DNA of 64,000 nt from Planctomycetota bacterium. Its GTDB lineage: Bacteria > Planctomycetota > PLA2 > JAEUHO01. The notes under the pieces were generated by a model, which saw nothing but the letters and a program-made list of their open reading frames with translations, did not search any database and was not told where the DNA came from. Numbering within the stretch: position 1 is the first letter of the stretch; the number at the start of each line of letters is the position of its first letter. The translations under genes and the position numbers were made by a program. The stretch covers positions 190,810 to 254,809 of the forward strand of contig CBDCWP010000034.1 in the NCBI GenBank assembly GCA_965223505.1, written 5' to 3'. This document shows positions 44,770-55,161 of this stretch, piece after piece.

Positions 44770-45798
44770 CTACGCGATTCGCGGGAGCCAGTAGATCTCG
44801 AGCGCGCGCTCGATGTTCTTGCGGTCCGAGCCCCAATCGTCGAGGGCATGGCGGTAGCGTAGGTACGCGATCAGGGCCTTGCACTGGGTGCGGTCGAAGA
44901 CCTCGAGCCGCGCGTTTCCGCGCTTGCCGATGTGCCGGGCCAGCGTGTCCACCGGATCGAAGTCGCACTCGCCTCCGTAGACGTCAGCGAGCAAGAAAGC
45001 CGGCAGGAAATAGGCCAGGCCCTCTGCGGTGAAGAAGCTCGGCGCCGCGTAGTTGTAGCTCAGAAACTCCGGGTGCAGGGTACGCCAGTCCTGACCGCGA
45101 AACTCGAGTGCATACTGCGGCCCGTCGTCCCCCTGACTGGACCCGCTCAGCCGGTCGTCGCCGGGGTATGCCGCGCCTTCGAATGCCGACTTGATCTGTG
45201 ACGCCACAGCACCGGCCTCACCCTCCAAGTCCGGCCAGGTGTGCCCGAACATGCGCTCGTAGTGGCTGTGCATGACCGCGTGATGGGGAGTGTCGCGGGT
45301 GCTCCATCCCCACCGCATGGCCTCTGCGGCGAGGAAGGGATACCGAAGGCGCTGGATCCACGCTAGGAACTCGCAGACGAGGTCGTACTCCTCGGGCGCG
45401 AGCGTCGCAACGCGCGCTTCGTGTTTCCGGTCGGCACCGCGGTAGTAGATGTGCCAGTAGCTCGGTACAAGTGAGAACGTCACCCTGTGGACGAGATTGC
45501 CGTCGTCTTTCAGATCGGTGAGTGCGCCACACAGGAGGGAAGGCAGGTAGTGGTGGTATCCCTCTGGCGTCAGGTAGATGAACGACGACCACTTGTCACG
45601 TAGCCAGTCCAGTGGAACCTGATCCCACGTTCGTCCCCGGAGCGCCTTCGCCAACGCCGCAGTCCCTGCGGGATCGTCCGTCGCCGCGTTCGATTCGATC
45701 AGTTTCTGCCCCCGCGGCTTCTTGCCGACGCCGAACCCGCGGGTGATTCGCAGAATCAGGTCGTGGGCCTGCTTGTGTTCCTCAGGAGAAAGCGCCAT
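44770..45798 (-). CDS. Tandem DUF6714-like domain protein
   Basis: Two repeats of W..[V/L]....L......[Y/F][L/F]T.EG..[H/Y][Y/F]LP; AF....YPGDD. Confidence 0.6.
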   Translation of the reverse strand: MALSPEEHKQAHDLILRITRGFGVGKKPRGQKLIESNAATDDPAGTAALAKALRGRTWDQVPLDWLRDKWSSFIYLTPEGYHHYLPSLLCGALTDLKDDGNLVHRVTFSLVPSYWHIYYRGADRKHEARVATLAPEEYDLVCEFLAWIQRLRYPFLAAEAMRWGWSTRDTPHHAVMHSHYERMFGHTWPDLEGEAGAVASQIKSAFEGAAYPGDDRLSGSSQGDDGPQYALEFRGQDWRTLHPEFLSYNYAAPSFFTAEGLAYFLPAFLLADVYGGECDFDPVDTLARHIGKRGNARLEVFDRTQCKALIAYLRYRHALDDWGSDRKNIERALEIYWLPRIA

Positions 45799-45940
45799 TG
45801 ACGCAAGGTACGGCACCCGTTCAGCGCGGTGGCAGCGGATTCTCGACGGTGCGTGACCGAAACCGCCGCCTCCGCGACTCGGATACCGAAGAGTCAGAGT
45901 TCCGCAGGTACCGAGTCAGGACCGATTCGTAGTCACTGGC

Positions 45941-46924
45941 CTATTCAGCAGCGGGCTTCGGCTTTCCAAGTTCCGGCCAGTACGCGAGGGCCTTCTCCTG
46001 GTCGCGTGCGAAGACGACTCGCCCCTGCGTGAACTCCGAGTCCTCTTCGATGTCGCGTGACGTGTAGCCCTGCCAGTGACCCTCGAACAGTCGACCCGTC
46101 ATGCCGATGGGGCGTAGGAGCGTGGTTCCGCAGATGCGGAGTTCGCCGGGGCTCCAGTAGGAGAGAGCGACGGATCCGTCGGGCGAAACTACCCCTTCCA
46201 TGGGGTACTGCTTCACTGCGGCGTCGAGCTGGTCCATGCCCTTCTTTGTTGAGAGCCCGACCATCCGGATTCGGTCGTTGGTGGTCCAGACACGGAGTTT
46301 GTCGGCTTCGAACACGTCCTCGGTTCCGTCATCATAGAGTTGCGTCCACTTGGCGTACCACCAGCCCTCCATCTTCTTGGCCGCGCGCTGAACGTGAAAG
46401 TGACCGTGAAACAAGACACGCGAAAGGGAGTCTACTCGTGCCTTGCCAACCTTCTCCATGTACCGATCGATGTAGCCCGCCAATGGCTCCATGGCTTTCG
46501 CTGGTGTGTCGGCGCCGAAGTGCCTGAGAGCTAGATCTCCGCAGAGCTTCTTGACCGAACGAGCGTCTTCGCCGTTGTATCGGTGATGCCGTGTGAAGAC
46601 CTCGTGGATGCTTCGCTCAGTGATGAAGTAAAACACCGGGATGATCAGCTTGTCTTGACCCTCGGCAAAGCCGCTTTCCCACACAAGCCAGGGTCTCTCG
46701 TTCGAGCCGGGCGTCAGGATGACGAGAATGGTATCCGCTTCCGCTACCCTGTTGTCGATGTTGCGGCGCCAGTCTCCCTGCGCCATTCCTTCCCCGGCCT
46801 CTTCATCGCTGGAGTACCAGGGATTGACCTGACGCCTAGTCACCGCCTTGATTAGCTGCTTCCACGCATCAGCGAGCAGCTTGTCGTCCTTGGCATGAGA
46901 GATAAAGATCTTCAGTCCGCCCAT
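45941..46924 (-). CDS. TIR domain protein with C-terminal beta-barrel domain
   Basis: IFISHA..D, W...I, ILTPGS.ERPWLVWESG; beta-rich C-terminal half. Confidence 0.82.
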   Translation of the reverse strand: MGGLKIFISHAKDDKLLADAWKQLIKAVTRRQVNPWYSSDEEAGEGMAQGDWRRNIDNRVAEADTILVILTPGSNERPWLVWESGFAEGQDKLIIPVFYFITERSIHEVFTRHHRYNGEDARSVKKLCGDLALRHFGADTPAKAMEPLAGYIDRYMEKVGKARVDSLSRVLFHGHFHVQRAAKKMEGWWYAKWTQLYDDGTEDVFEADKLRVWTTNDRIRMVGLSTKKGMDQLDAAVKQYPMEGVVSPDGSVALSYWSPGELRICGTTLLRPIGMTGRLFEGHWQGYTSRDIEEDSEFTQGRVVFARDQEKALAYWPELGKPKPAAE

Positions 46925-47023
46925 CGCAATTACAACGCCTCCGCAAAGGAGTGCCTGCACCGGCTCCATCTAGAGTACTGCGAGATAACGAGTTTCTCCG
47001 TTCGATGTTCGAACGGGAGCTCC

Positions 47024-48580
47024 CTAGAGGCAGAGCAGGAAGGCCACGAGATCCTCCTTCTCTCCTCGGTTCAGATGCAACTCGAGCACGAGGTCGAAGA
47101 ACTCGACGACGTCGTGCAGTGTGGGTAGGCGGCCGTCGTGCAGATACGGCGGCGAGTCCTTGATGCCGCGCAACGGGAACGTCTTGATCGGCCCCTCCGG
47201 TCGTCCCTTGTAGAATCGTTCGACCCTCAGGTCATGCAGGTAGTCGTCGGTAAATGCCGGACCGTAGTGGCAGGCAGCGCAGCGGGCCTTGCCGTGGAAC
47301 AGCGCCTCGCCGCGCAGCTCGGCCTGCGTTGACTTCGACGGGATCAACCGCATGAGAGGTCCCAGCTTCGGCGCGGGCGCGTAGTCGATGATCGCGTTGA
47401 AGTCGCCCATCCGATTCGTAATCTGGCGCTGGGCGCCGCGCGGGCCGATCGCCTGCATCAGACCGGGATCCCCGTCGAAGTACTCCTCCACCTCCGCGAA
47501 GTGATCCAGACTTCGAATGGACCGTTTGGCGGACAGCTGCATCAGGTTGTAGTTGCCGCGCATGGTCGGCGTGTCCACGCGAAGCCTCGCCTGGTTCGGG
47601 CGGGCGTCCGGCGCGAGCTCGAAAGCGCCGTTCGTGTGCCCGTTCACGTGGCAGGCGAAGCACGACACGCCCGCGCTCGCTTCCTTGGTGACCCGGTGAT
47701 GCGTGTGGTTGAACCACGTCGTCGGCGTCGGTCGTAGCAACTCCTTCAGGCCCTCCATCTGCTCGGGTGTCAGGAGACCGTCGAAGATCTCGTAGTAGTT
47801 GGCGAGCGTGACCTCGCGCCCTTTGGTTACGTCGCCCAGCTCCTTGTGGGTCGTCAGGAACAGTGGCGCCGGGAACTCGGGCAGATACGCATCCGGAAAG
47901 TCGTGATCGACATCGATTCGGAGGTGCTCCGGATGGGCGCGGACCCATTGATCCGGAAACACCATGTGCGCGGTCGACTGCAGCGGGTGAGCCAGGGGAA
48001 GAAACGGGAACAGGCCGCGATCGCGGATGGCGTCGGGGGTGAGGCGACCCAACGCCTCCCACGAATCGACGCCTTCCGGCAAGCGCGCTACGGGGCCGGC
48101 CATGATCGGCTTGCCGCCGCTCATGGAGGCGCCGGGAATCGACTTGCCGTGGAAGTCGAAGCGACTCTTCATGTAGTGCCGCACGTCTTTCATGAGCGAC
48201 GGCTTCTGCTTCTCGCAGTGATCGAGCCACTCCGCCCAAGACATCGACAACGTCGGGCTCGACCACGAGCTCGCTCCCCGTCCGGCGTAGCGCCACAAGT
48301 CGAAGGGCGTTCGCATTCCCGGCTTTTCACTGGGGTAGGGACGCAGCTTCGCGACGAACCCGTCCCCCAGACCCCAGTCCGTGGCCGGCCTCTTCGCGCG
48401 GGCGGCCGGGCTCTGGCGCAGGTGCATCGGTCGCTCGTCCGGTTCGTACCGGACGTTGGGCTCTTGGGGCTCTTCGTCACCCGACGCGGGGGGAACGCCG
48501 GCGCCGATCACGTAGCCGACGGCAAGCGTCGTCGTCACGAGCGTCAAGCAAAGCAGTAGACGTGTCTGTCGAGACTTCAT
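47024..48580 (-). CDS. Exported di-heme cytochrome c (cytochrome c peroxidase-like)
   Basis: Signal peptide; CFACH and CAACH; TFPLRGI..SPPYLHDG. Confidence 0.88.
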   Translation of the reverse strand: MKSRQTRLLLCLTLVTTTLAVGYVIGAGVPPASGDEEPQEPNVRYEPDERPMHLRQSPAARAKRPATDWGLGDGFVAKLRPYPSEKPGMRTPFDLWRYAGRGASSWSSPTLSMSWAEWLDHCEKQKPSLMKDVRHYMKSRFDFHGKSIPGASMSGGKPIMAGPVARLPEGVDSWEALGRLTPDAIRDRGLFPFLPLAHPLQSTAHMVFPDQWVRAHPEHLRIDVDHDFPDAYLPEFPAPLFLTTHKELGDVTKGREVTLANYYEIFDGLLTPEQMEGLKELLRPTPTTWFNHTHHRVTKEASAGVSCFACHVNGHTNGAFELAPDARPNQARLRVDTPTMRGNYNLMQLSAKRSIRSLDHFAEVEEYFDGDPGLMQAIGPRGAQRQITNRMGDFNAIIDYAPAPKLGPLMRLIPSKSTQAELRGEALFHGKARCAACHYGPAFTDDYLHDLRVERFYKGRPEGPIKTFPLRGIKDSPPYLHDGRLPTLHDVVEFFDLVLELHLNRGEKEDLVAFLLCL

Positions 48581-49722: not shown

Positions 49723-50344
49723 CACTGCCGCAACGCGACGAACCGGACTTGATCGATCCGTCCCCAGTCCAGTTCACCCGACCCTAGTTGAACCTGGCCA
49801 CACGGTTCGGGACGGGACGAGTGTGCACATCGAGGGAGTTCGAGGTCAACGATTGCCGGAGCGCAGAGACGCGATCTCCTGCTCGAGTCTGCTGATTCTC
49901 TCGAGAGCCGGTGGAGAGACGTCCTCCGCTCGTCCTGACGCTGGTCGAATCCGCCGCCTACGTGAACCACTGCAGGCTCGAGATGGGGGAGCGGCCGGTG
50001 CTGGCGGTCGCCTCCCACAGGAGGCCTCGAGACCGGCGAAGTCGGCGCCGGCGCCCCGAAACGGGCCTGGACGGGCGTCGCCGGGGCCCGCTCCTGGCCC
50101 AATTCGGGCTCACCAGGGATCAAGGCCCCTTCAAAGCCCTGAAAATGGCCTTCCTGGCGGAATCAGAAGGGGAACCTTTTCCCGGATCCGCGCGTCAACC
50201 CCCATAGACAAAGGGCCCCGGTCCGCCTCCTGAGTTGGTGGCATCCACAAAACGGGGGCCCTAGAATGGGTCGATTCAAGGAATCCGAGCAGCGCAATGA
50301 CTCCGCAAGTGGGGCGGGTGTGCGCTGCGCGAGAGAGGACAAAC

Positions 50345-51106
50345 ATGCGGAAGTTCTTGTTCACGGGCCTGGTGCTGGCCTTCGTCTTCACGTGCTCCGG
50401 GCTGACCTACGCCAAGACGGTGGGCTGCTGAGGCATCTCTCCGGCCAGTTCGGCTGTGTTGAACAAGGCTTGGTCCACCGCGAACCGGGCCTCGCCGGCG
50501 CTCGACGGCGTCATTACCGGCGATAGCGCCTCGGAAGAAGAAGCCGAGGAGCCCGCGGAGCTGAAGCCCGCCGATCAGCCGATGCTGATCTACGTGCACG
50601 ACGGCAACGCCGAGGACGAAGACTTCCAGAAGATCGAGAACATCGTCCTTCAGGACTTCAAAGTCGCTGCGGCGCGCAACGCTTTCCGTTGCCTCAAGAT
50701 GACACCCGAGGACGTCGAGAACGATCCGGCCCTCGCCGGTAACGGCAAGGCCCCCTCTCGCCTCCTCGTCGTCGATCGCGACTGGAAGAAAGTCAAGGTC
50801 ATCGAGGGCAAGAACCTCTCGTCGAAGAAGCTGTACACGGCGATGAAGGCATCGGCGAACCGCGCGTACAAGACGAAGCTCGACAAGAACGTCAAGGGCC
50901 TTCTCAAGTTGATCAACGAGTTCAACAAGATCAACAACGCCAAGAAGGTGCTCGAAGAGAAGGAACAGCGTCTCGGCTCCGAGATCAGCAAGGCCGACGC
51001 CAAGAAGATCGCCAAGGAGCGCGAAGAGCTGAACGAGGCACAGAAGGAAGCCGACGCGCTGCGCGACAAGCTCTACCACTTCGAGCTGAAGCCCCTGAAG
51101 GCCTAG
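50345..51106 (+). CDS. Candidate exported selenoprotein (GC-U-G, in-frame TGA 50429-50431), thioredoxin-like fold plus coiled coil, 253 aa
   Basis: SD GAGGA, ATG, 23-aa signal peptide, KTVGC-TGA-G in frame with ORF 50456-51106; hairpin just downstream of the TGA. Confidence 0.7.
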
Positions 51107-51143
51107 TACTTCCCGCTACTTCACGACTCGACTGCTTACCCTG

Positions 51144-51175
51144 CAACGGGCGCCTCACGGCGCCCGTTGTTTTTT
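51144..51175 (+). terminator. Intrinsic terminator
   Basis: CAACGGGCGCC-TCAC-GGCGCCCGTTG followed by T6. Confidence 0.88.
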
Positions 51176-51232
51176 GGCACGGCGTCCGGCCCTTCGGGGC
51201 ACTCGAGACGCGACGCGCTTCTCGCGAGCGTT

Positions 51233-53594: not shown

Positions 53595-53904
53595 CGGCCA
53601 AGCTCGCGCACGTGACCTGCAACGCGGCCTCGCCCGCGTCGTCGGTTCTGCGGTCGCACCTTTGGGAACGGAGGTGGACCCTGGGGGCGTCGTGCAGCGC
53701 GAGAACGCATCTCCTCTCAGCCCCTAACGGACTCTCTTGAAACAGGTTACGACGTGATTGCCAGGGTCGCCGACCGGGACCGCTCGAAATCAGGCCGACA
53801 AAACCTTGCGCTGCCTTGCGTATTGTATAGATTTTTAATTATACGAAATAAGGCGGGCGCGGGCCTACCGAGCCGCCCCCGGACAAATGACCCAGGAGCC
53901 TCCC

Positions 53905-55161
53905 ATGAACCCCCTCAACCCGATCTCGAGCAGCCTTCGCCGCGCAGCGGTCGTCGTGGTCCTCACGATAGGACTGCTCCTTCCCACAACCGCCGGCGCC
54001 GGTGAAACGGAAGGCGAAGAGACCGTATCGAAGGACTTCTTCGAGGCGTCTCTCGACGGTCTGATCATCGGGACGCCGGGCGTGTGGGACGAGATCACCG
54101 TGTTCCCGATCGTCGCGCCCAAGGCGCCGGCACCGCTGGCGATCGATGCCGGCTCCGCCGCGGCGGGACTGCGAATCAAGGATCGCACGACACGCCGGCA
54201 CGAGTACGACCTCGTCCTTCGCAATGAAGGCGACCGCGCCGTCCTCTTGCTCGGGGGAAGCGTGATCACGGGCGGCAAGATGGAGCGCGTCGTGCCCTCG
54301 GACGTTCTTCTTCCCGCCAAGTCCGGGGACGTCGATCTCGACACGCTCGCTGCAAGCGCGTCGTGGGAGCTCCTGCCCGAAGCGAAGCGCAAGCCCCAGC
54401 GCCTGGCCGACGTCATGGCGCCGAAGTACTTGCGGGAGCTGATCGAGGACCGTCGAACGAACCGCAGCGTCCGTCGATTCCTGGAGAACTTCGACGGCCT
54501 GCGAACCGGCGACGAGGCACCGACGCTGAGCGGTACGGCCGACGCGGATCCGTTGAAGGAGTTCTGCATCGCCTGCCAGGGCGACGTCGCCAACTTCCCG
54601 CGGCTGAACCGCCCGACCACCATCGGGTTCATCACGGCGGTGGGGGATCGCCTACAGACGCTCGAGCTGTTCGGTTCGAACGACCTGCTCCGGCAGTCCT
54701 TCCGTCCGATCCTCGCCGCCCACGCGTTCCGCGTCGCAGCCGAAGCGGTCCGTCGCGGCGAGCTGGAAGAGGAACTGCCGAAGGTGGACGCTGTGAAACG
54801 TCTCGAGTCCCTGCGCACCGACGCGGAGTGGTTGTTGGGCGCGCTTCGCGATCGTGGCTACACGCGAGATGACGAGGTCGAGAGCGACTCGGCGGGCGAG
54901 GCACTCGACATCTGGATTCGCGGCGCGCGCGGCCGGGCCATCGGAATCGACGGCCGTCTCGTGCACGCAACGGTATTCCGCCACGACCCCTTCGAGCGCG
55001 CGCTCTTCGACGATCCCCTGCAGTTCGATCAGGAGACCCGCGCGAAGAACGTCGGAACAGAAGAGCTGAAGCGTCGAGGTGACCGCGGCACCTTGACAGA
55101 GTACGAGCGCCGGCTGCTCGAGCGTCGCAGCGCACGCGATCCGCTCGGGGCGCCGCGCTAG
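53905..55161 (+). CDS. Exported ARPP-1/DUF6569-like domain protein
   Basis: Signal peptide; ITVFPI, L.N.GDRAVLLLGG..I.GGK.ERVV..DVLLP, LELFGS..L. Confidence 0.7.
   Translation: MNPLNPISSSLRRAAVVVVLTIGLLLPTTAGAGETEGEETVSKDFFEASLDGLIIGTPGVWDEITVFPIVAPKAPAPLAIDAGSAAAGLRIKDRTTRRHEYDLVLRNEGDRAVLLLGGSVITGGKMERVVPSDVLLPAKSGDVDLDTLAASASWELLPEAKRKPQRLADVMAPKYLRELIEDRRTNRSVRRFLENFDGLRTGDEAPTLSGTADADPLKEFCIACQGDVANFPRLNRPTTIGFITAVGDRLQTLELFGSNDLLRQSFRPILAAHAFRVAAEAVRRGELEEELPKVDAVKRLESLRTDAEWLLGALRDRGYTRDDEVESDSAGEALDIWIRGARGRAIGIDGRLVHATVFRHDPFERALFDDPLQFDQETRAKNVGTEELKRRGDRGTLTEYERRLLERRSARDPLGAPR

What the first reader, a model, noticed from the sequence alone, without database searches (positions are those of the whole stretch)
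50345..51106. Candidate new exported selenoprotein with an N-terminal Gly-Cys-Sec-Gly motif
Seen: SD and ATG at 50345 give a clean signal peptide (MRKFLFTGLVLAFVFTCSGLTYA), then KTVGC, TGA (50429-50431), then GISPASS continuing in frame into the 216-aa ORF. That ORF lacks its own SD and signal peptide. About 10 nt after the TGA is a hairpin cggcc-agttc-ggctg with G in loop position 2. Known: GCUG is the C-terminal redox motif of mammalian thioredoxin reductase, and bacterial SECIS elements are hairpins just 3' of UGA with a G early in the loop. Inference: a monocistronic, secreted thioredoxin-like protein with no CxxC, carrying a vicinal Cys-Sec pair on a flexible N-terminal arm. Gene callers would truncate it.
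Basis: partly seen in the sequence, partly recalled or inferred. Interest (0 to 1): 0.82.

Follow-up and report, generated by a model that had tools for sequence, protein, structure and literature searches.

The report
New exported selenoprotein family in Planctomycetota
This gene encodes a secreted thioredoxin-like protein whose in-frame TGA is read as selenocysteine just after the signal peptide, and it belongs to a widespread, so far unannotated protein family of Planctomycetota that gene callers routinely cut short.

Summary
ATG 50345, in-frame TGA 50429-50431 and the 216-aa ORF form one 253-codon gene. In all 50 TGA-containing homologs read at residue level, the TGA lies at the same motif column after a signal peptide. 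Eleven full-length homologs have Cys there. A hairpin follows the TGA; its loop Ser codon is AGU in 25 of 25 genes, against 2.9% AGU elsewhere in those genes. The genome has selA, selB, tRNA-Sec and a Sec-containing SelD. In a 301-genome phylum sample, 58 genomes carry the family, and 49 of 52 full-length matches have an in-frame TGA.

The AlphaFold model (pLDDT 88.7) is a thioredoxin fold without CxxC, closest to DsbD-gamma/ERp19, plus a C-terminal helical hairpin. GCUG itself is not conserved. One chalcogen is invariant (60 of 60), and the second varies: CU, UC, UU, UGU, U(G)nRC, or none.

No Pfam or NCBIfam model matches, no entry in the 2026 list of 119 prokaryotic selenoprotein families fits, and sources say "hypothetical protein". 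Function is inferred: most likely a periplasmic redox centre on a short N-terminal tail (about 0.5); metal capture is the main rival.

The parts
50238..50267 (+). sigma-70-like promoter candidate (GTGGCA, 18 nt, TAGAAT)
   Evidence: 1 site found against 0.1 expected in shuffles. Homology to the closest relative begins at 50218. This is a consensus match only.
50331..50339 (+). Shine-Dalgarno-like GAGAGAGGA, 5 nt before the ATG
   Evidence: Read directly.
50345..51106 (+). Complete selenoprotein gene: 253 codons with Sec at codon 29, stop TAG at 51104-51106
   Evidence: GC3 frame signature.
50345..50413 (+). Signal peptide, residues 1-23, with predicted signal peptidase I cleavage after T-Y-A
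   Evidence: Read. Homologs show n/h/c regions and mostly A-x-A before the motif. Hydrophobic core scores at least 1.6 in 49 of 60 rows. No SignalP run.
50414..50434 (+). Mature N-terminal tail K-T-V-G-C-U-G; Cys28 codon 50426-50428, Sec29 codon TGA 50429-50431
   Evidence: The chalcogen column is Sec or Cys in 60 of 60 rows. Mean pLDDT of residues 21-30 is 61.
50442..50456 (+). SECIS-like hairpin CGGCC / AGUUC / GGCUG inside the coding sequence
   Evidence: 88.3% of cells paired against 22.8-36.1% in slid registers; loop Ser codon AGU in 25 of 25; only 16 such hairpins in the whole genome.
50435..50494 (+). Docking segment, residues 31-50 (helix 33-39, strand at W43), the first element of the thioredoxin fold
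   Evidence: pLDDT 91-95. VIA alignments start at model residue 35-43. A34 and W43 are conserved.
50495..50578 (+). Acidic, low-confidence linker, residues 51-78
   Evidence: pLDDT 65-72; variable length in the alignment.
50579..50872 (+). Core of the thioredoxin fold, residues 79-176, with no CxxC after the first strand (HDGNAEDE instead)
   Evidence: No Pfam hit.
50879..51073 (+). C-terminal hairpin of two long Lys/Glu-rich helices, residues 179-243
   Evidence: H179-213 and H216-243, pLDDT 96-97.
51143..51176 (+). Intrinsic terminator: 12-bp stem with 9 G-C pairs, then a T run

Best explanation
Window 50345-51106 is one monocistronic gene for an exported selenoprotein.

Shown by comparison: UGA at codon 29 is decoded as selenocysteine by the organism's SelA/SelB/SelD/tRNA-Sec system, directed by a SECIS hairpin that starts 10 nt after the UGA inside the coding sequence.

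Inferred from sequence: the first 23 residues are a Sec-pathway signal peptide removed by signal peptidase I. The mature periplasmic or secreted protein then begins K-T-V-G-C-U-G, with the Cys-Sec pair on a short free tail.

Predicted with high confidence: the tail leads straight into a thioredoxin fold of the DsbD-gamma/ERp19 class that has lost its CxxC, followed by a helical hairpin.

Inferred, about 0.5: the invariant (seleno)cysteine of the tail is the reactive nucleophile. The neighbouring Cys or Sec resolves it into a vicinal selenenylsulfide (or diselenide), so the tail replaces the missing CxxC as the redox centre of a periplasmic oxidoreductase or peroxidase-like protein. It works like the GCUG tail of animal thioredoxin reductase, but at the opposite end of the chain.

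The confidence below is for the identity claims (real gene, Sec decoding, exported, thioredoxin fold, new family). The redox step is rated separately at about 0.5.
For: Conservation of the TGA:
- 36 of 41 related genomes have the family, and nearly all full-length matches carry one in-frame TGA.
- in 50 of 50 TGA-containing genes read at residue level, the TGA lies at the motif column after a signal peptide.
- 58 of 301 phylum genomes have the family. By my count of its rows, 49 of 52 matches starting at profile position 14 or earlier have a TGA, in 11 taxonomic families.

Cys homologs: searches give 11 full-length members with CC, CCC, CxC, CxxC or a single C there. In the tree they arise at least 5 times within Sec clades.

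SECIS:
- the hairpin is paired in 88.3% of cells against 22.8-36.1% in slid registers, with compensatory changes at 2 pairs (9 cells).
- four genes (L023-25, L027) have different hairpins further 3'.
- loop Ser codon AGU in 25 of 25 against 13 of 448 other Ser codons; the preceding Ala is GCC in 28 of 28.
- By reading the DNA printed: 14 of 14 distant genes with Ser at that place, par1 and the UU gene also use AGU, while par2 uses AGC.
- Cys forms lose the A-S-x-A motif in 10 of 11 (read).

Machinery: searches show selA, selB, tRNA-Sec at 69 bits, and selD with TGA at its known Sec site. Of 31 genomes with a TGA form, 29 have selA and the other 2 have selB and tRNA-Sec.

Coding frame: GC3 1.00 before the TGA.

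Fold: pLDDT 88.7 and pTM 0.82; 1sen at E 3.5e-3 plus AGR2 and DsbD-gamma; 3f9u Z 8.0 and 1vrs_D Z 7.8.

Redox step: one chalcogen is invariant in 60 of 60 rows. The second moves or is missing in 5 of 60 (read). This is the pattern of catalytic plus resolving residues in thiol peroxidases and reductases (my knowledge). Some paralogs carry two extra Cys in the loop where CxxC would sit.
Against: There is no experimental evidence of selenium incorporation, export or activity, and no RNA run was listed. RNAalifold predicted no consensus structure on the 30-sequence alignment, and Rfam has no match. bSECISearch was not available. The stem core never varies, so most support for the hairpin comes from codon choice and from only two covarying pairs.

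The fold matches are modest (best Foldseek E 3.5e-3; Z 8 lies in a range the tool calls common), and the model was built with Cys in place of Sec. Model coordinates could not be read, so the distance from the tail to the former active-site loop is unknown.

Against the redox step: the window's own protein has no Cys in the former active-site loop, and Cys116 is present in only 28 of 60 rows. Tails that are Gly- and Cys-rich with variable spacing (for example QCGGCCKSGGCKGG in L077) also resemble metal-binding tails. No conserved neighbour gene suggests a redox partner.
Confidence: 0.87

Rival explanations
1. Same selenoprotein, different chemistry. The N-terminal Cys/Sec tail is a soft-metal or metalloid capture arm (for example Hg, Cu, Cd, Ni or As) that binds an ion and holds it or hands it on in the periplasm. 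The thioredoxin-like domain would serve only as a scaffold or docking module.
For: Haft and Gwadz argue that CC and CU motifs in selenoproteins signal heavy-metal interaction (sections 16 and 29 read). The family's tails are Gly-rich, with 1-5 chalcogens at variable spacing (CGC, UGU, CEHC, QCGGCCKSGGC). The motif lies 1-6 residues from the predicted mature N-terminus, so the free amine could be a further ligand. From my own knowledge, not tested here: the vicinal C-terminal Cys pair of mercuric reductase captures Hg(II), and the processed N-terminus of Ni superoxide dismutase forms a metal hook.
Against: No metal-resistance or transport genes are conserved next to the gene. No NCBIfam model of the SAO or MbdU selenoproteins matches. 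Five of 60 members have a single chalcogen, which is poor for chelation. No conserved His, Met or Cys cluster exists in the domain.
Confidence: 0.3
2. The TGA is an ordinary stop. A 28-residue hydrophobic leader peptide is made, and the downstream protein is translated separately from GTG 50456 or an equivalent start.
For: Table 11 gives exactly these two ORFs, and all public gene calls start after the TGA.
Against: The codons between the TGA and the first downstream start are conserved as protein (G-R-S-x-A-S). The two parts are in frame in 50 of 50 genes. Full-length homologs replace TGA with Cys. There is no Shine-Dalgarno-like sequence before 50456. The downstream protein would lack the first element of its own fold and any export signal. 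One homolog has TGA TGA in tandem at the site.
Confidence: 0.03
3. Assembly or sequencing error, or a recent pseudogene: the true codon is TGC or TGG.
For: Depth in the run-level contigs is low (word depth 2-3.4).
Against: Contigs of X1, X2 and X3 agree with no differences (same sample, so not independent). The same TGA occurs in 31 genomes of 11 taxonomic families in the phylum sample and in three paralogs of this genome.
Confidence: 0.01

Closest known systems
C-terminal Gly-Cys-Sec-Gly tail of animal thioredoxin reductase / thioredoxin-glutathione reductase
   Same: The identical tetrapeptide G-C-U-G in the window's protein and 22 other members (labels). It is a vicinal Cys-Sec pair on a short, flexible terminal tail able in principle to form an 8-membered selenenylsulfide ring.
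   Different: Here the tail is at the processed N-terminus, not the C-terminus. The protein is exported. There is no FAD/NADPH domain or partner CVNVGC centre. The SECIS is a bacterial in-frame hairpin. The motif is not fixed in the family (UC, UU, UGU, U..RC, U alone). All GCUG papers found concern eukaryotic enzymes (search listing only).
Exported thioredoxin-fold domains of the DsbD-gamma / ERp19 (TXNDC12) / AGR2 / Thioredoxin_7 class
   Same: Best structural matches: 1sen at E 3.5e-3, AGR2 and DsbD-gamma; 3f9u_B Z 8.0 with rmsd 3.3 over 107 residues, and 1vrs_D Z 7.8 with rmsd 2.7 over 104 residues. The protein atlas points to Thioredoxin_7/_2 clusters at 0.81-0.83 (a lead only). These domains lie outside the cytoplasm, as this one is predicted to.
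   Different: No CxxC or CxxS at the canonical site. No Pfam hit even at E up to 1. An added N-terminal Sec tail, a 28-residue acidic insertion and a C-terminal two-helix hairpin.
Known thioredoxin-fold bacterial selenoproteins (Trx, Grx, DsbA-like, DsbG-like, TlpA UGC type, SaoT, Trx7/PDZ and others)
   Same: Thioredoxin fold with Sec, Cys-containing homologs, and an in-frame SECIS directly after the UGA.
   Different: In all of those, Sec sits in a UxxC, CxxU or UGC motif (Table 1 of PMC13188914, read in full). By my knowledge of the fold, that motif lies at the canonical active site. Here that site is empty and Sec lies about 50 residues upstream, next to the signal-peptide cleavage site. 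None of their Pfam or NCBIfam models matches; the entries that carry only cd models could not be scanned.
CU-motif selenoproteins of Haft and co-workers (SaoL, SaoB, SaoC, HgcA, MbdU, KCU-star)
   Same: A Cys-Sec dipeptide; systematic truncation in databases at the TGA; occasional double-Sec forms.
   Different: No sequence relationship (no NCBIfam hit), no SAO-type conserved neighbourhood, a different fold and a different position of the motif.

Membership tests
Bacterial selenoprotein (UGA decoded as Sec) | In-frame UGA conserved among homologs, with protein-level conservation on both sides | tested here: met
   50 of 50 TGA-containing genes read at residue level; 49 of 52 full-length matches in the phylum sample (my count); GC3 1.00 upstream.
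Bacterial selenoprotein (UGA decoded as Sec) | Homologs with Cys aligned to the Sec | tested here: met
   11 full-length Cys forms; the chalcogen column is filled in 60 of 60 rows; Cys forms are nested in Sec clades.
Bacterial selenoprotein (UGA decoded as Sec) | SECIS hairpin just 3' of the UGA with G early in the apical loop | tested here: met
   (AGU in 25 of 25 against 2.9%). Against this: RNAalifold found none, there is no Rfam match, and bSECISearch was not run.
Bacterial selenoprotein (UGA decoded as Sec) | selA, selB, selC and selD in the genome | tested here: met
   across the phylum, 31 of 31 genomes with a TGA form show Sec machinery.
Bacterial selenoprotein (UGA decoded as Sec) | Selenium shown in the protein (75Se labelling or mass spectrometry) | not testable with these tools
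Thioredoxin-fold superfamily | Beta-alpha-beta-alpha-beta-beta-alpha topology matching solved thioredoxin-fold structures | tested here: met
   Model with pLDDT 88.7. Foldseek probability about 1.0 but E no better than 3.5e-3. VIA Z up to 8.0, and nearly all of the 50 listed rows are thioredoxin-fold proteins.
Thioredoxin-fold superfamily | CxxC (or CxxS / UxxC) at the N-terminus of the helix after the first core strand | tested here: not met
   The window has H-D-G-N-A-E-D-E there. Only some paralogs carry C-x5-C in that loop.
Pfam Thioredoxin_7 (PF13899) or any Pfam / NCBIfam family | Match to the family's profile at or above its cut-off | tested here: not met
   Pfam: nothing better than E 0.01, and no thioredoxin family listed. 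NCBIfam: 0 families at E up to 1.
Thioredoxin reductase type GCUG redox tail | G-C-U-G as the penultimate C-terminal residues of a pyridine-nucleotide disulfide oxidoreductase | tested here: not met
   The tetrapeptide is present but N-terminal, and there is no FAD/NADPH domain. It may work like one, but it is not a member.
SAO-system / metal-binding CU selenoproteins | NCBIfam model match and the conserved SAO neighbourhood | tested here: not met
   no hit; no conserved neighbours.
Bacterial lipoprotein | Lipobox with uncharged -4 to -1 residues before an invariant Cys | tested here: not met
   Read: many members have E, D or K at -3/-4 (TEAG-U, ADAG-U, AKTVG-C) or Sec at +1. A-x-A signal peptidase I sites fit instead. 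No predictor was run.

The most novel reading that the evidence does not exclude
A thioredoxin fold whose reactive centre has been moved off the canonical CxxC site onto the processed N-terminus. There, a vicinal dichalcogenide (Cys-Sec, Sec-Cys or Sec-Sec) on a swinging tail acts as the catalytic centre of a new class of periplasmic oxidoreductase or peroxidase. This would be a bacterial, N-terminal counterpart of the thioredoxin reductase tail. Placing the UGA directly after the signal peptide would also make export of the protein selenium-gated, because failure to insert Sec yields only a signal peptide.
Probability: 0.35. Interest if true: 0.85.

Novelty: new variant of a known kind. Interest (0 to 1): 0.74.

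Why it matters
If confirmed, it adds a family to the 119 listed prokaryotic selenoprotein families. The family is common: 58 of 301 sampled Planctomycetota genomes carry it, and this genome has three Sec copies. Yet every public record seen calls it "hypothetical protein" and truncates it. Re-annotation would restore the signal peptide and the reactive residues to hundreds of database entries.

Chemically, it offers a natural series of vicinal CU, UC, UU and CC tails on one scaffold. That is a ready-made system for asking why selenium is chosen over sulfur, and what vicinal selenenylsulfides or diselenides do outside thioredoxin reductase.

It also shows that Sec can sit 2-6 residues from a mature N-terminus, with the SECIS encoded in the first structural element of the protein. 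This bears on how SelB-dependent decoding coexists with co-translational targeting.

Tried and rejected
- RNAalifold on the 30-sequence alignment gave no consensus structure. I relied on counts for the named structure and on codon usage instead.
- Rfam gave only three noise hits, with E of 0.28 or more.
- Pfam and NCBIfam scans of the protein found no family.
- The search for related loci with the 30-row alignment failed for lack of a conserved stretch. A 7-row alignment worked but found only 11 loci.
- Gene-context analysis found no neighbour shared with the window. Neighbours shared among distant orthologs are an Asp-Al_Ex/TrkA_C permease and ABC permeases, which are uninformative.
- No RNA holder was listed for the stretch, so nothing can be said on expression.
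- Model coordinates are not exposed, so the position of the tail relative to the former active site could not be measured.
- The protein atlas gave only Planctomycetota "hypothetical protein" clusters and thioredoxin-like leads below 0.9.
- The search of earlier findings by sequence returned nothing.
- Haft and Tolstoy 2025 (PMC12013261) is not held. Its families were checked only through the review's table and the NCBIfam scan.
- The lipoprotein reading was considered and rejected (see membership test).
- Alternative genetic codes (TGA as Trp or Gly) were rejected because Cys, not Trp or Gly, aligns with the TGA, and because selD carries TGA at its known Sec site.
- The genome-wide hairpin scan found 6 other hairpins with an upstream in-frame TGA, all in Arg/Pro-rich frames that do not look like protein. 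I did not follow them up.

Full report
**The observation.** Searches confirm every sequence statement. A Shine-Dalgarno-like GAGAGAGGA (50331-50339) lies 5 nt before ATG 50345. Codons 1-23 read as a signal peptide (MRKFLFTGLVLAFVFTCSGLTYA), followed by KTVGC. TGA is at 50429-50431, and the frame continues without a stop to TAG 51104-51106. That gives 253 codons, of which table 11 sees only the last 216 (GTG 50456). The hairpin CGGCC/AGTTC/GGCTG occupies 50442-50456 and starts 10 nt after the TGA. The 28 codons before the TGA have GC3 = 1.00 in the frame of the downstream ORF (GC3 0.87), while the intergenic DNA upstream has no such periodicity. A promoter-like site (50238-50267) and a strong terminator (51143-51170 plus a T run) bracket the gene. 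Homology to the closest relative begins at 50218 and nothing further upstream is shared. The gene is therefore a self-contained unit.

**Is the TGA selenocysteine?** Four independent lines say yes.

1. *Machinery.* The genome has selA and selD side by side on contig C8, selB on C41 and a tRNA-Sec at 69 bits. Its SelD carries TGA at the known Sec position, G-U-A-A-K.

2. *Conservation.* A six-frame search with the read-through protein found the family in 36 of 41 related genomes, and almost all full-length matches have exactly one in-frame TGA. I read 50 TGA-containing genes at residue level: 30 loci, two tandem paralogs on contig C30 of this genome, 17 from other taxonomic families and one more. 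In all 50 the TGA lies in the same short motif, between a signal peptide and the conserved G-R-S-x-A-S-x-A-x-L-x-I-x-W segment. In an even sample of 301 genomes of the phylum, 58 carry the family. By my count of the rows, 49 of the 52 matches starting at profile position 14 or earlier have a TGA, across 11 taxonomic families. Record titles of relatives read "MAG: Planctomycetota bacterium".

3. *Cys homologs.* A profile search of 1.84 billion representatives gave 566 hits at E up to 0.001. Most start at profile position 35, the Met after the TGA, so they are truncated gene calls. The full-length ones have Cys at the Sec column: GCGCCG, GCCCG, CACC, CGC, CSSC, CEHC, CKGC or a single C. In a maximum-likelihood tree of 60 rows (49 Sec, 11 Cys; one duplicate dropped), the Cys label needs at least 5 changes and is nested within Sec clades.

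4. *SECIS.* In the common register the hairpin GGCC-AGUAU-GGCC is paired in 88.3% of cells against 22.8-36.1% in registers slid by 1-3 columns, with both-sided changes at 2 of 6 pairs (9 cells). Four of the 30 genes (L023-25, L027) have a different hairpin further 3', for example GGUGAGG/CCUCACC. The sharpest result is codon choice. The Ser in the loop is AGU in 25 of 25 genes, whereas AGU is 13 of 448 (2.9%) of all other Ser codons in the same 30 genes, and the Ala before it is GCC in 28 of 28. Reading the DNA printed, a further 14 of 14 distant genes with a Ser there, paralog 1 and the UU gene use AGU, while paralog 2 uses AGC. Ten of the 11 Cys forms have lost the A-S-x-A motif, as expected if the RNA, not the protein, constrains it. 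In the whole 5.15-Mb genome only 16 hairpins of the type CC-AGUNY-GG with at least 5 pairs exist. The window's is the only one behind an in-frame TGA in a protein-like frame.

*Results against.* RNAalifold predicted no consensus structure, Rfam has no match, and bSECISearch was not available.

*Further checks.* Twenty-nine of the 31 genomes with a TGA form have selA (against 221 of 301 overall, so this test is only mildly discriminating). The other two, both fragmented MAGs, have selB and tRNA-Sec over threshold. A base error is excluded by the comparative data. Contigs of three runs from one sample, possibly the source, also show no difference at the TGA.

**What the protein is.** AlphaFold2 with the 30-sequence alignment gave pLDDT 88.7 and pTM 0.82.
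- Residues 1-30 are of low to middling confidence (signal peptide and tail).
- Residues 31-50 score 91-95 (helix 33-39, strand at the conserved W43).
- Residues 51-78 are an acidic low-confidence linker.
- Residues 79-176 form a beta-alpha-beta-alpha-beta-beta-alpha core.
- Residues 179-243 form two long helices.

Foldseek against the PDB lists thioredoxin-fold proteins, led by ERp19/TXNDC12 (1sen, E 3.5e-3), AGR2/AGR3 and the gamma domain of DsbD. The aligner that does not depend on Foldseek gives 3f9u_B (an exported cytochrome-c-biogenesis-related domain; Z 8.0, rmsd 3.3, 107 residues) and DsbD-gamma 1vrs_D (Z 7.8, rmsd 2.7, 104 residues), followed by dozens of thioredoxins. The tool itself warns that Z values near 8 are common. 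The model ranges start at residue 35-43, so the segment directly after the Sec is the first element of the fold and only about residues 24-30 are free. Where CxxC would sit, the window has H-D-G-N-A-E-D-E. No Pfam or NCBIfam profile matches.

Most members have an A-x-A type signal peptidase I site 1-5 residues before the motif (TYA|KTVGCUG, AIA|GACUG, AEA|GUCG, AYA|KGUGGGG). Charged residues at -3/-4 argue against a lipobox. This is reading, not a predictor.

**The motif.** G-C-U-G is only one state. The family shows CU (23 rows), UC (13), U-G-U (1), U-(G)n-R-C (10) and U alone (2). One gene outside the tree has two adjacent TGA codons, G-G-U-U-G, followed by the same hairpin. In the 60-row alignment one chalcogen column is filled in 60 of 60 rows. 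A second chalcogen is adjacent in 42 rows and sits at the R-C-G position in 10. Reading the tails, three further Cys forms carry it two to three residues upstream (CxxC/CxC), and it is absent in 5 rows (L065, L080, L078, P0040, P0067). Cys116 of the core is present in only 28 of 60 rows. Some paralogs, including the two on C30, have C-x5-C in the loop where CxxC would be. The same domain without a Sec tail occurs inside large proteins, including a 1598-aa Ser/Thr kinase with an FGE-sulfatase domain in this genome, and a HEAT-repeat protein.

**Mechanism.** Decoding of UGA29 as Sec through an in-frame SECIS, and membership of a conserved family, are shown by comparison. Export and cleavage are inferred from sequence. 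The thioredoxin fold is predicted with good confidence.

The chemistry is inferred. An invariant nucleophile with a movable or dispensable partner is what one sees in 1-Cys/2-Cys peroxiredoxins, methionine sulfoxide reductases and glutathione peroxidases (my knowledge). The scaffold is a redox fold that has lost its own centre. I therefore favour a redox-active tail forming a vicinal selenenylsulfide or diselenide (about 0.5).

The main rival (about 0.3) is metal or metalloid capture. It draws on Haft and Gwadz's reading of CC/CU motifs (sections read) and on the Gly/Cys-rich, variably spaced tails. Nothing in the neighbourhood helps to decide, because neighbours are not conserved.

**Novelty.**
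- I read Table 1 of the 2026 review PMC13188914 in full (119 families). No entry has this architecture. The CU/UC entries are CopZ-like 2Fe-2S proteins, SaoL, SaoB, SaoC, HgcA, MbdU and KCU-star. Most entries carry Pfam, NCBIfam or TIGR models, and my scans of those libraries found nothing; a few carry only cd or PTHR identifiers, which I could not scan.
- For deep-Sep (PMC12013277) and BSepDB (PMC13326102) I saw only search passages. Neither mentions Planctomycetes. Their supplementary lists were not read and could bear on priority.
- Searches for "selenoprotein" with "Pirellulales" (0 papers) and for "GCUG" with bacterial terms (only eukaryotic reductases among the 12 listed) found nothing.
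- Table S9 of PMC4807772, read, lists one unnamed "hypothetical" selenoprotein candidate in a planctomycete, with a Cys homolog in Rhodopirellula and a SECIS. It may or may not be this family.
- Public records of 10 representatives are unnamed or named "hypothetical protein".

**Verdict.** This is a real and well-supported selenoprotein gene, and the founding example of an undescribed, phylum-wide family with an unusual placement of Sec. Its function is still open.

Noticed in passing
G003:C51 (locus L082:100-885, minus strand): A family member with two adjacent TGA codons (G-G-U-U-G), followed 11 nt later by the same GGCC-AGUCU-GGCC hairpin. If both are decoded, this is a vicinal Sec-Sec pair served by one SECIS.
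   Followed up: partly
G000:C30:299734-301433, minus strand (outside the window): Two tandem paralogs of the family in the same genome, both with Sec (AEAG-U-C-...). They carry C-x5-C in the loop where a thioredoxin CxxC would sit. One has a 10-residue Gly-rich insert between the Sec and the docking segment, which puts its loop Ser codon (AGC) 42 nt after the TGA.
   Followed up: partly
G000:C40:209934-210452, minus strand (protein P0099, 1598 aa): The same thioredoxin-like domain plus helix, without a Sec tail, is embedded in a giant protein with an N-terminal Ser/Thr kinase, Glucodextran_B-like domains and a C-terminal FGE-sulfatase domain. Other genomes have it in 750-950-aa and HEAT-repeat proteins.
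   Followed up: partly
G000:C8:36851-39232 (outside the window): selA and selD are adjacent, and SelD is itself a selenoprotein (TGA at G-U-A-A-K). Its downstream hairpin also has GGCC/GGCC arms (CAAGGCC-ACCUUGGA-GGCCUUG).
   Followed up: partly
phylum sample: selA is found in 221 of 301 sampled Planctomycetota genomes, so selenocysteine use appears to be the rule in this phylum.
   Followed up: no
window 47024-48580, minus strand: A 518-aa exported protein with two CxxCH haem-binding motifs (CFACH, CAACH) and only a weak RoxA-like cytochrome-c hit (E 6e-4). It looks like a di-haem peroxidase or MauG-like protein and lies 1.8 kb upstream on the other strand. It is not conserved next to homologs.
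   Followed up: partly
window 44770-46969, minus strand, and 53887-55161, plus strand: Neighbouring genes encode a TIR_2 domain protein (E 7.8e-9), a DUF6714 protein and an ARPP-1 domain protein. This may be a defence-type neighbourhood unrelated to the finding.
   Followed up: no
G000, (for example C38:88680 minus strand, C44:235445 minus strand): Six other CC-AGUNY-GG hairpins in the genome have an in-frame TGA within 57 nt upstream. The surrounding frames look like non-coding Arg/Pro-rich translation, so they are probably chance.
   Followed up: no
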